A stretch of DNA of 64,000 bases, taken from NCBI RefSeq assembly GCF_009914755.1, contig NC_060931.1, one strand, 5' to 3'. The notes beneath the pieces are model-generated. The model was not told the origin of the DNA. It ran no database searches and saw nothing but the letters and a program-made list of their open reading frames with translations. Positions 47,110-48,453 of the stretch are shown in pieces. Position numbers and translations under genes: made by a program. Numbering within the stretch: the stretch's first letter is position 1; each line of letters starts with the position of its first letter. This DNA comes from the human T2T-CHM13v2.0 reference genome, Homo sapiens.

Positions 47110-47539
47110 CATTGCTCTTTTCCCCTCGAAATTCTGACTCCTAAGAACAAAGTAAGTATTATTCTAATTACCCGCTGTTGCTCTCAATTGCCATGTGGCA
47201 GGCCACACAAGTGGATTTTCAATTCACAGGCTGTTTGCTGATGCTAATTTTGTGTCCCAATTTCATCTCCATAGAATATTAATAATTCCATTTATGTTTC
47301 AGAATAGCTTTATAATTCTATTTTTTAGAAGCCCTAATATTACATATACTTTTGCAAAATCTAAACAAGAGATTGAAAGATGGTATAACTTAACTTTCTA
47401 GGAACTTTCTTGTCAGCACCATAAGAAAGGTAAAAAAATAAAAATAAAATGGAAATGCAGCTTACCTTGAAGTTATGGGGAAGACATAAGTACTAGGAAG
47501 GATACTCAGTGTATAAGAAAATCAGAAAAAGAATTATGA

Positions 47540-47831
47540 GGCTGGGCATGGTGGCTCACGCCTGTAATCCCAGCACTTTGGGAGGCCGAGGCAGGTGGAT
47601 CACCTGAGGTCAGGAGTTCGAGACCAGCCTGACCAACATGGTGAAACCCCATCTCTACTAAAAATACAAAATTAGCTGGTATGGTAGAACATGACTGTAA
47701 TCCCAGCTACTCGGGAGGCTGAGGCAGAAGAATCGCTTGAACCCCGGAGGCAGAGGTTGCAGTGAGCTGAGATCACACCATTGCACTCCAGCCTGGGCAA
47801 CAAGAGCAAAACTCTGTCTCAAAAAAAAAAA
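47540..47831 (+). mobile_element. AluS, full length (Sp-type right arm)
   Basis: ccattgcac and ggcaacaagagcaaaac diagnostics. Confidence 0.96.
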
Positions 47832-48024
47832 GATTCCCCAATCCAGCCACCCACACGATGTTTGAAGATGATATAGTAGCATAATTTCGGAGGCCATACA
47901 AGAAGTTTAGATTTTAGATCTTCACAACAAACTTTAATTCCAATTTTGGTTTTAAGTTAAGTGCCTACCCTGGGCCAGGCACTTACAGGGGCCCAAGTAC
48001 ACATTGACGTCTAAAACAGGACAC

Positions 48025-48292
48025 AATCCCAGCACTTTGGGAGGCTGAGGCGGGCGGATCACCTGAGGTCGGGAGTTCAAGACCAGCCTGACCAACATGG
48101 AGAAACCCCTTCTCTACTAAAAATACAAAAATTAGCCAGGTGTGGTGGCGGGCATCTGTAATCCCAGCTACTCAGGAGGCTGAAGCAGGAGAATCGCTTG
48201 AACCTGGGAGGTGGAGGTTGCAGTGAGCCGAGATTGCACCACTGCACTCTAGCCTGGGTGACAGAGTGAGACTCCATCTCAAAAAAGAAAAG
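48025..48292 (+). mobile_element. AluS lacking the first 26 nt (Sp-type left arm, Sx-type right arm)
   Basis: gtcgggag and ctgaccaacatggagaaacc on the left; ccactgcac and gtgacagagtgagac on the right. Confidence 0.95.
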
Positions 48293-48453
48293 AAAAAGAA
48301 TTATGAGGGAGATAAGCTAGAATCATTATCATTAACCTTGGATTATGCTAAAAATAGACTTCTTAAAGGGACTTTACAGATCATTCCGTCCAACAATTTT
48401 GAAAGTAAGCGTCATGAGACACTAGACTCCACAAATGTCAAAGGATACCATAG

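What the first reader, a model, noticed from the sequence alone, without database searches (positions are those of the whole stretch)
47524..48307. Two reciprocally chimeric Alus and 193 bp of foreign DNA inside one TSD: possible fossil integration of a ~459-bp DNA circle
Seen: AGAAAAAGAATTATGA(G) precedes Alu1 (47524-47540) and follows the tail of Alu2 (48291-48307). It does not follow Alu1 or precede Alu2, so one TSD brackets Alu1, a spacer (47832-48024) and Alu2. Equivalent Alu positions are 459 bp apart, and Alu2 starts at consensus nt 27. Using AluSp diagnostics from memory: Alu1 has non-Sp ATGGTG on the left but an Sp right arm (4-A linker, CATG, CCATTG, AACAAGAGC). Alu2 has an Sp left arm (TCGGG, CTGACC, ATGGAG) but an Sx-type right arm (5-A linker, CCACTG, GACAGAG). 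Inference: the extra 459 bp is a circular permutation of AluSp nt 27 to tail plus 193 bp of its 3' flank. That is the product expected if a small extrachromosomal circle integrated by one crossover (~47643-47670) into a resident AluSx in the germline. Local tandem duplication is unlikely because the spacer is not repeated after Alu2. Pol III read-through is unlikely because the spacer has T4 runs. Caveat: Alu1 also has CTGACC on the left, so its left-arm call is weaker.
Basis: partly seen in the sequence, partly recalled or inferred. Interest (0 to 1): 0.82.

Follow-up and report, generated by a model that had tools for sequence, protein, structure and literature searches.

The report
Repair-copied DNA patch inside an Alu
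An old Alu repeat on human chromosome 7 was split by a 459-base patch copied from another Alu and its neighbouring DNA 108 kb away, an ordinary scar of DNA repair or replication and not good evidence for an integrated DNA circle.

Summary
The structure is real. One exact 18-nt direct repeat (47524-47541, 48291-48308) brackets a full Alu, a 193-nt spacer and an Alu that starts at nt 27, in a 459-461 nt register. The source was found. The spacer has one other copy in the genome, 107,953 bp upstream on the same strand, directly behind the A-tail of an ordinary Alu that has its own target-site duplication, with no Alu after it. The window matches that locus collinearly from Alu nt 12 through 193 nt of flank plus AATCCC (95%). 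Alu1 follows the donor in both arms: 33 sites against 9, and 90/92 in the left arm. Only its first 11 nt differ (7 of 11, p=2e-7). Alu2 shares nothing private with the donor. So there is no crossover at 47643-47670 and no reciprocal chimera. The best reading is a linear templated insertion into a resident Alu. It started in Alu-Alu homology (nt 12-47) and ended at a 6-nt microhomology (nt 27-32). Both junctions lie in the published Alu recombination hotspot. This is a known kind of event (repair-mediated duplication, template switching). A circle remains possible only if its crossover fell in a 21-nt window next to its own junction.

The parts
47524..47541 (+). Left copy of the resident Alu's target-site duplication (18 nt; the last GG is shared with the Alu start)
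   Evidence: Exact repeat of 48291-48308
47540..47550 (+). Resident Alu nt 1-11, not copied from the donor
   Evidence: 7 of 11 positions differ from the donor, against 20 of 480 in the copied tract (Fisher p=1.9e-7). All three CpGs are TG-versus-CA double hits, while the tract has none
47551..47586 (+). Left junction interval, Alu nt 12-47. The switch from resident to donor template lies somewhere in here. It overlaps the published Alu recombination hotspot nt 24-45
   Evidence: Identical to the donor except 47571. The first site where Alu1 = donor but not Alu2 is 47587. Hotspot positions come from passages of PMC2041999
47587..47831 (+). Donor-derived Alu body (nt 48 to the end) and A-tail
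   Evidence: 33 sites where Alu1 = donor but not Alu2, spread over 47587-47815. The donor is the best match to 47660-47822 among the 40 of 1410 first-look candidates that were scored (94%, next best 92%)
47832..48024 (+). Copy of the donor Alu's 3' flank. With the A at 47831, its first bases (47831-47844) are a copy of the donor Alu's own 3' target-site duplication, AGATTCCCCAATCC
   Evidence: The only other copy in the genome is G000:C7:157605879-157606071, same strand, 96%. At the donor that 14-mer flanks the Alu on both sides
48025..48030 (+). Right junction: the 6-nt microhomology AATCCC, present in the donor flank (L002:1694-1699) and as Alu nt 27-32
   Evidence: Homology to the donor ends exactly after these 6 nt. 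The donor then continues with unrelated unique DNA
48031..48290 (+). Resident Alu nt 33 to the end, with its A-rich tail (Alu2)
   Evidence: Differs from the donor at all 33 discriminating sites. It is followed directly by the right copy of the target-site duplication
48291..48308 (+). Right copy of the resident Alu's target-site duplication
   Evidence: Exact repeat of 47524-47541

Best explanation
A full-length Alu inserted by ordinary retrotransposition at a target site that begins AGAAAAAGAATTATGA. This part is inferred from the single intact target-site duplication.

Later, roughly 15-40 million years ago, a DNA strand that ended inside this resident Alu, somewhere in nt 12-47, paired with a different Alu lying 108 kb upstream in the same orientation. 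The cause was either a break or a stalled replication fork. DNA synthesis on that ectopic template ran through the rest of the donor Alu, its A-tail, its 3' target-site duplication and 193 nt of unique flank.

The new strand then came loose. Its last six bases, AATCCC, annealed to the identical six bases at nt 27-32 of the resident Alu, and the break was sealed. The net result is a conservative copy-paste insertion of 459 nt.

Shown: the donor, the collinearity of the insert with it, and both junctions.
Inferred: the enzymology. Synthesis-dependent strand annealing with a microhomology end, coupled homologous/end-joining repair, and replicative template switching (FoSTeS/MMBIR) all give this product and cannot be told apart here.
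For: 1. The spacer has exactly two copies in the 3.1-Gb assembly. The second follows an Alu tail directly, 107,953 bp upstream on the same strand.
2. That Alu is an ordinary insertion with its own 14-nt target-site duplication, and its flank continues as unique DNA. It is therefore the source and the window is the recipient.
3. The window aligns collinearly with the source from 47551 to 48030 (L002:1216-1699): 95.1% over 486 columns, with no homology outside.
4. In the three-way site table, Alu1 = donor but not Alu2 at 33 sites spread over both arms. Alu1 = Alu2 but not donor at 9 sites, of which 6 are donor indels or misalignment around a donor indel (2 indel columns near 47774 and 4 mismatch columns at 47814-47820, which one search shows sit beside the 2-nt indel).
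5. In the left arm (nt 27-118) Alu1 matches the donor at 90/92, Alu2 at 85/92, and seven other Alus in the window at 75-82/92.
6. Alu1 nt 1-11 differ from the donor at 7 of 11 positions (p=1.9e-7). A CpG-aware estimate gives about 5e-6. The head of Alu1 is therefore resident.
7. The right junction is a 6-nt microhomology that coincides with Alu nt 27-32.
8. Both junctions fall in or next to the published Alu recombination hotspot at nt 24-45 (passages of PMC2041999; the 26-bp core in passages of PMC6071635).
9. Events of this kind are documented. More than 1,000 repair-mediated duplications inside human transposable elements show microhomology, filler or deletion at their junctions (abstract and passages of PMC2671141). 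Templated insertions of 376 to 13,357 bp occur at template-switch junctions (passages of PMC5120786).
10. A donor within 108 kb on the same chromosome has a chance of about 7e-5 for a random source (own arithmetic).
Against: - The donor is 108 kb away. In the Pace et al. set, 824 of 1,136 donors lie within 5 kb and only 58 are further away on the same chromosome.
- The outgroup state, one uninterrupted Alu in the same target-site duplication, could not be checked because no other primate genome is held.
- Three sites in the tract have Alu1 = Alu2 but not donor (47571, 47632, 47659). Two are most simply later changes in the donor. At 47632 Alu1 has CTGACC and the donor has CTGGCC. Of the 20 Alus fetched's right-arm hits, 4 carry an A at that position together with a GTG-type motif, two of them exactly CTGACC + ATGGTG. 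A later donor change is therefore likely but not proven.
- The product alone cannot separate this reading from a circle whose crossover fell at nt 27-47, or from a 108-kb duplication followed by a deletion.
Confidence: 0.82

Rival explanations
1. A circle of about 459 nt, made of donor Alu nt 27 to the tail plus 193 nt of flank and closed at AATCCC, integrated into the resident Alu by a single crossover.
For: The product would be identical if the crossover lay in nt 27-47. Closing a circle at a 5-6 nt microhomology fits what is reported for germline eccDNA (search listing and abstract only of PMC10581685). Germline reinsertion of circles has been proposed (passages of preprint 10.1101/2022.06.22.497135).
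Against: - The predicted reciprocal chimeras are absent. Alu2 carries no donor variant from nt 48 onward (33 of 33 discriminating sites).
- The crossover would have to fall in 21 of about 256 homologous nt, directly beside the circle's own junction. That is about 8% if positions were uniform (own arithmetic). A linear copy requires this placement.
- A free circle gives no reason for a donor only 108 kb away.
- The same preprint cites work suggesting that circularisation lowers reinsertion.
Confidence: 0.04
2. Two steps. Unequal Alu-Alu exchange or break-induced replication between the resident and donor Alus first made a 108-kb direct duplication. A deletion between the two AATCCC sites then removed all of it except 459 nt.
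For: This gives the same final sequence. Alu-Alu exchange at the nt 24-45 hotspot and microhomology deletions are both common.
Against: It needs two independent rare events whose end points happen to leave a neat patch. No remnant of the 108-kb copy was seen: the spacer has only 2 copies, and there is no further homology between the two loci.
Confidence: 0.05
3. The patch was copied from an RNA, not from DNA, during break repair. The RNA would be a transcript running through the donor Alu and its flank (a class 2 templated sequence insertion).
For: Templated insertions at breaks have been reported to derive from RNA (a section heading in the outline of PMC5110952; that section was not read; its abstract speaks only of a DNA patch from a distant region). 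The junction types would be the same.
Against: The hub's gene table lists no gene at the donor position, which is about 60 kb before the window. A diffusible RNA does not explain cis proximity unless it is a local nascent transcript. The copy has no poly(A) of its own at its end.
Confidence: 0.05
4. One-step chimeric retrotransposition. L1 reverse transcriptase copied an Alu RNA back to nt 27, jumped to a pol III read-through transcript of the donor Alu and copied it to its 5' end, so that a single target-site duplication flanks the whole.
For: The composite is flanked by one target-site duplication, ends in an A-rich tail, and Alu1 starts at Alu nt 1.
Against: Alu1 nt 1-11 are not the donor's (7 of 11 differ; CpG-aware probability about 5e-6). 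The flank holds three T4 runs that should stop pol III. The copied flank ends at an internal microhomology, not at a terminator. Retrotransposition gives no reason for a source 108 kb away.
Confidence: 0.01

Closest known systems
Repair-mediated duplications (Pace, Sen, Batzer and Feschotte 2009, PMC2671141; abstract, passages and methods section read)
   Same: A transposable element is interrupted by a copy of DNA that exists at one other place in the genome. The donor is kept. The donor lies on the same chromosome. A junction shows microhomology (their range is 2-9 nt). The size is within their range (up to 619 bp for proximal events, 3,424 bp for distant ones).
   Different: The donor is 108 kb away, not under 5 kb. 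The copy starts inside a homologous Alu, so the upstream fragment looks like a complete Alu. Their pipeline discards fragments longer than 95% of the consensus and requires the same repeat name on both sides, so it would not list this case. A look-up in their supplementary table, using coordinates I only estimated, found no chr7 entry. That check is weak.
Alu/Alu-mediated rearrangement by template switching (AAMR, FoSTeS/MMBIR; Song et al. 2018 PMC6071635, Gu et al. 2016 PMC5120786; passages read)
   Same: The switch between two divergent Alus produces an intact chimeric Alu. The junction lies at the 26-bp core, the nt 24-45 hotspot. A second switch uses a few bases of microhomology. Templated insertions of hundreds of bases are known.
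   Different: Those are mostly deletions or large copy-number changes in patients. Here the only net change is a fixed, old 459-nt insertion.
Coupled homologous and non-homologous repair of one break (mammalian cell experiments; recalled, the primary paper was not read; the phrase was only seen to occur in papers listed)
   Same: One end starts by homology on an ectopic repeat and copies into the donor's flank. The other end is joined without long homology.
   Different: That is an experimental system. This is a germline fossil, and the breaks and proteins involved are unknown.
Class 2 templated sequence insertion polymorphisms (Onozawa and Aplan 2016, PMC5110952; abstract read)
   Same: A patch templated from a distant region fills a break, without an L1-type target-site duplication or poly(A) of its own.
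   Different: Those insertions land seemingly at random, and a section heading in that paper's outline (section not read) says they derive from RNA. Here one junction is homology-guided and the source is in cis.
Germline reinsertion of extrachromosomal circular DNA (preprint 10.1101/2022.06.22.497135; passages read)
   Same: An apparently permuted order (Alu part, flank, Alu part) is what a circle integrated by one crossover would give.
   Different: The order is fully explained by a linear copy placed inside a resident Alu. The reciprocal chimerism that would mark a crossover is absent.

Membership tests
Repair-mediated duplication / templated insertion | The insert interrupts a pre-existing element whose two parts fit together | tested here: met
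   Alu1 nt 1-11 (or more) plus Alu2 nt 27/33 to the end make one full Alu inside one exact 18-nt target-site duplication
Repair-mediated duplication / templated insertion | The insert is a collinear copy of a single donor that is still in place | tested here: met
   There are two copies in the genome. The collinear alignment 47551-48030 = L002:1216-1699 is 95.1% identical
Repair-mediated duplication / templated insertion | Junctions show microhomology, filler or deletion, and the insert has no poly(A) or target-site duplication of its own | tested here: met
   The right junction has the 6-nt AATCCC. The left junction lies in 36 nt of Alu identity. The insert ends in unique flank
Repair-mediated duplication / templated insertion | The donor is close by (typically under 5 kb) | tested here: not met
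   The distance is 107,953 bp. This places it in the minority 'distant, same chromosome' class of Pace et al. (58 of 1,136)
Repair-mediated duplication / templated insertion | An empty (uninterrupted) site in outgroup species | not testable with these tools
   No other primate genome is held (the header says the genome has no relatives here)
eccDNA integration by one crossover | The two flanking repeats are reciprocal chimeras of resident and circle | tested here: not met
   Alu2 is non-donor at 33 of 33 discriminating sites from nt 48 onward. Alu1 is donor-like in both arms
eccDNA integration by one crossover | The insert is circularly permuted relative to the donor | tested here: not met
   The insert is collinear with the donor over its whole length. 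The permutation is only apparent
eccDNA integration by one crossover | A circle-closing junction lies inside the insert | tested here: inconclusive
   The AATCCC join could be a circle junction or the end of a linear copy
L1-mediated chimeric retrocopy / pol III read-through transduction | The 5' unit is a full transcript copy of the source, including nt 1 | tested here: not met
   nt 1-11 differ at 7 of 11 positions, p=1.9e-7
L1-mediated chimeric retrocopy / pol III read-through transduction | The transduced flank ends at the first terminator | tested here: not met
   There are three T4 runs inside the flank. The flank ends at AATCCC with no T run
Alu/Alu-mediated rearrangement (AAMR) | A junction inside an Alu pair yields an intact chimeric Alu, preferentially at nt 24-45 | tested here: met
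   The switch interval is nt 12-47. The hotspot is given in passages of PMC2041999 and PMC6071635
Alu/Alu-mediated rearrangement (AAMR) | Deletion or duplication of everything between the two Alus | tested here: not met
   Only 459 nt were copied. The 108 kb between the loci is single copy as far as tested

The most novel reading that the evidence does not exclude
The 459 nt entered as a small extrachromosomal circle closed at the AATCCC microhomology, and it recombined with the resident Alu within the 21-nt hotspot stretch next to that junction. That would make this a germline fossil of microDNA reintegration. A milder novel reading: Alu-homology-primed capture of unique flanking DNA over about 100 kb may be a recurrent class that earlier scans excluded by design.
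Probability: 0.04. Interest if true: 0.7.

Novelty: new member of a known kind. Interest (0 to 1): 0.3.

Why it matters
This is a fully resolved textbook-style example. The donor, the recipient and both junctions are known to the base, and both junctions sit in the Alu recombination hotspot. It shows how an Alu can act as a landing pad that lets repair or replication copy unique DNA from 100 kb away.

It also warns that 'chimeric' subfamily calls made from diagnostic positions can mislead. Alu1's combination is simply that of its source.

Practically, events that begin inside a homologous repeat look like two separate repeats. The criteria of the one published scan read here would drop them, so their number in the genome is unknown. 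The locus lies in an intron of a non-coding RNA gene, and nothing suggests a function.

Tried and rejected
- The first motif count on the 29 best whole-Alu2 hits was uninformative. The TCGGGAG and TCAGGAG strings also occur in the right arm, and the top hits were generic Alus. It gave 0 of 29 with Alu2's combination.
- Exact-string classification of 30 Alus sharing Alu2's left-arm 26-mer left 10 ambiguous. I replaced it with an alignment-based reading. Most have the 4-A linker, CATG, CCATTG and ACAAGAG. Three of 30 (L045, L048, L057) lack the extra A, and only L045 matches Alu2 throughout.
- A sample of Alus sharing the donor's left-arm 26-mer was read for 27 loci; 3 of the 30 were not extracted by my script. 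None had the donor's full right-arm set. This first suggested that the donor type is rare. Sampling from the right arm instead showed GTG-type left arms in 6 of the 20 Alus fetched (rows 3-22's 40-row table). The donor type is therefore ordinary.
I fetched 20 short stretches instead.
- The look-up in the Pace et al. supplementary table used number prefixes from coordinates I estimated from memory. It found only chr3, chr6 and other chromosomes, so it is weak evidence of absence.
- Tandem duplication is rejected: the spacer is not repeated after Alu2 and the donor is 108 kb away.
- The window as source and L002 as recipient is rejected: the L002 Alu has its own intact target-site duplication and the spacer begins with it.

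Full report
**What is there.**
- An exact 18-nt direct repeat lies at 47524-47541 and 48291-48308. Its last two G are shared with the Alu start.
- Between the two copies lie a full-length Alu (Alu1, 47540-47831, A11 tail), a 193-nt non-Alu spacer (47832-48024), and a second Alu that begins at Alu nt 27 (Alu2, 48025-48290).
- Equivalent Alu positions are 459, 461 and 460 nt apart.
- The repeat does not occur between the two Alus, so a single target-site duplication encloses everything.
- An 18-nt exact match 767 nt apart is not a chance event.

**The source.** The window's own genome could be searched.
- The spacer has exactly two copies in 3.1 Gb: itself and G000:C7:157605879-157606071, on the same strand, 96% identical and 107,953 bp upstream (locus L002).
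- At L002 the spacer directly follows the A-tail of an Alu (L002:1205-1500).
- That Alu is an ordinary insertion. The 14-mer AGATTCCCCAATCC lies on both sides of it (L002:1191-1204 and 1501-1514).
- After the stretch that corresponds to the spacer, the flank continues as unrelated unique DNA with no Alu.
- In the window the spacer begins with that 14-mer, but no copy of it precedes Alu1.
- L002 is therefore the donor and the window the recipient.

**Extent and junctions.** The two loci align collinearly from window 47551 to 48030 (L002:1216-1699), 95.1% over 486 columns, with no other homology in 3.2 kb around either locus apart from Alu-to-Alu matches.
- On the right, homology ends exactly after AATCCC (48025-48030). 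These six bases are present in the donor flank (L002:1694-1699) and are also nt 27-32 of any Alu. This junction is a 6-nt microhomology.
- On the left, homology fades inside the Alu. From nt 12 onward Alu1 equals the donor, except at 47571. In nt 1-11 they differ at 7 of 11 positions.

**Is Alu1 a chimera with a crossover at 47643-47670? No.**
- In a three-way comparison over the part present in all three Alus, Alu1 agrees with the donor against Alu2 at 33 sites. These run from 47587 to 47815, and seven of them lie in the left arm.
- Alu1 agrees with Alu2 against the donor at 9 sites. Two of these are donor indel columns near 47774. Four are mismatch columns at 47814-47820 that sit beside the donor's 2-nt indel.
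- In the left arm alone (nt 27-118) Alu1 matches the donor at 90/92, Alu2 at 85/92, and seven other Alus of the window at 75-82/92.
- A search with Alu1's linker and right arm scored 40 of 1410 first-look candidates. Among those 40 the donor is the best match (94%) and the next best is 92%.
- Alu1 is therefore donor-derived in both arms from nt 48 at the latest, and Alu2 carries no donor variant.
The donor's left arm has TCAGG, CTGGCC and ATGGTG, where Alu2 has TCGGG, CTGACC and ATGGAG.

**Is the head of Alu1 from the donor? No.**
- The seven differences in nt 1-11 compare with 20 in 480 for the rest of the tract (Fisher p=1.9e-7).
- The head is CpG-rich, so I checked CpG decay separately. In the copied tract five CpGs are intact in both copies, three are hit in one copy and none in both. 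In nt 1-11 all three CpGs are hit in both copies on opposite strands.
- With the tract's per-copy hit rate (0.19) this has a probability of about 5e-6.
- The first 11 or more bases of Alu1 therefore belong to the resident Alu, whose remainder is Alu2.
- This also removes the retrotransposition reading, which needs a full donor transcript.

**Subfamily mosaics.** Without Dfam I sampled the genome.
- The 26-mer that covers Alu2's CTGACC and ATGGAG has 10,796 exact matches.
- Of the first 30 in genome order, most have the 4-A linker, CATG, CCATTG and ACAAGAG. Three lack the extra A (L045, L048, L057), and only L045 matches Alu2 throughout.
- Alu2's combination is therefore a minority type. It exists elsewhere and is not explained by this donor.
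- For the donor type, 27 readable loci of 30 that share its left-arm 26-mer (45,561 matches) had none with the full right-arm set.
- Sampling from the other side gave a different picture. I fetched 20 of the 38 further Alus listed as matches to Alu1's right arm (rows 3-22's table). Of these, 14 have ATGGAG and 6 have a GTG-type left arm. Four of the six carry an A at the CTG?CC position as in Alu1; two of those are exactly CTGACC + ATGGTG. The other two carry the G state as in the donor.
Alu1's CTGACC is probably the donor's original state.
- The subfamily names (Sp, Sx, Sq) are recalled and were not tested against a library.

**Mechanism.** The insert is a linear, collinear copy: donor Alu from somewhere in nt 12-47, through the tail, the donor's 3' target-site duplication and 193 nt of flank.
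- Its start is set by Alu-Alu identity and its end by six bases of microhomology. This is the polarity expected for a 3' end that invades an ectopic homologous repeat, is extended, and then anneals back.
- Both junctions fall in the resident Alu at nt 12-47 and nt 27-32. The published hotspot for Alu recombination breakpoints is nt 24-45 (passages of PMC2041999). The 26-bp core is discussed in passages of PMC6071635, which argues for template switching or microhomology joining rather than classical crossing-over between Alus.
- Synthesis-dependent strand annealing with ectopic templates is the mechanism proposed for more than 1,000 'repair-mediated duplications' inside human transposable elements, with 2-9 nt microhomologies (PMC2671141: abstract, passages and methods).
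- Templated insertions of 376 to 13,357 bp at template-switch junctions are reported in patients (passages of PMC5120786).
- Which pathway acted cannot be read from the product.

**Age.** The copy and the donor differ by 16 mismatches and 4 gaps in 486 columns. MAFFT gives 20/480, of which four are an indel artefact at 47814-47820. With substitution rates of 0.5-1.2e-9 per site per year (recalled, not from a call) this gives about 15-43 Myr. The event would be old and presumably fixed.

**The circle.** A circle closed at AATCCC would give the same sequence only if its single crossover with the resident Alu lay between nt 27 and nt 47.
- That is 21 of about 256 homologous positions and lies directly beside its own junction. 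A linear copy needs exactly this geometry.
- A diffusible circle also gives no reason for a source only 108 kb away on the same chromosome (chance about 7e-5 for a random source).
- I put it at about 4%.
- A two-step route (a 108-kb Alu-Alu duplication, then a microhomology deletion) and an RNA template are each about 5%. One-step chimeric retrotransposition is about 1%.

**Limits.**
- No other primate genome is held, so the empty site is predicted and not seen.
- Whether this locus is in print was checked only against the Pace et al. supplementary table, with coordinates I estimated, and through six literature searches. None turned up this locus. That pipeline's criteria would exclude it.

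**Verdict.** The donor shows a linear repair or replication copy, not a crossover with a circle. It is a clean new example of a known kind of event, with modest interest.

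Noticed in passing
window 48446-48496: A four-base microsatellite (CACT/TCAC units, about 12 copies) lies about 140 nt downstream of the right target-site duplication.
   Followed up: no
window 47684-47831: The hub's list of masked stretches covers 47512-47683 and 48020-48307. It does not cover the right arm of Alu1, although that is plain Alu sequence. This may be a quirk of the masking, or of the list's limit to stretches of 100 or more.
   Followed up: no
window 48025-48290 (Alu2); L045: The resident Alu combines a left arm with TCGGG, CTGACC and ATGGAG and a right arm with the 5-A linker, CCACTG and AC-AGAG. Among 30 genome Alus that share the left-arm 26-mer, only L045 is the same throughout and 3 lack the extra A. 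This is a minority type, either an intermediate subfamily or an older conversion, and it is unrelated to the donor found here.
   Followed up: partly
window 47632 (and 47571, 47659): At these three sites Alu1 matches Alu2 and not the donor. At 47571 and 47659 the donor carries the unusual base. At 47632 Alu1 has the A of CTGACC. Four of the 20 Alus fetched's right-arm hits also carry an A there with a GTG-type motif (two exactly CTGACC + ATGGTG), so the donor probably changed later. A short conversion patch from Alu2 is not excluded.
   Followed up: partly
G000:C1:912264-912422 (L039/L040): The same Alu left-arm 26-mer occurs twice, 133 nt apart on one strand. In the alignment, L040 continues into a second linker and left-arm-like stretch. 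This looks like a tandemly repeated Alu left monomer.
   Followed up: no
window 47950-48010 (spacer) = L002:1619-1680: From memory, part of the spacer resembles the core of an ancient MIR-type repeat. This was not tested because no repeat library is available here. If true, it fits the donor flank being old resident DNA.
   Followed up: no
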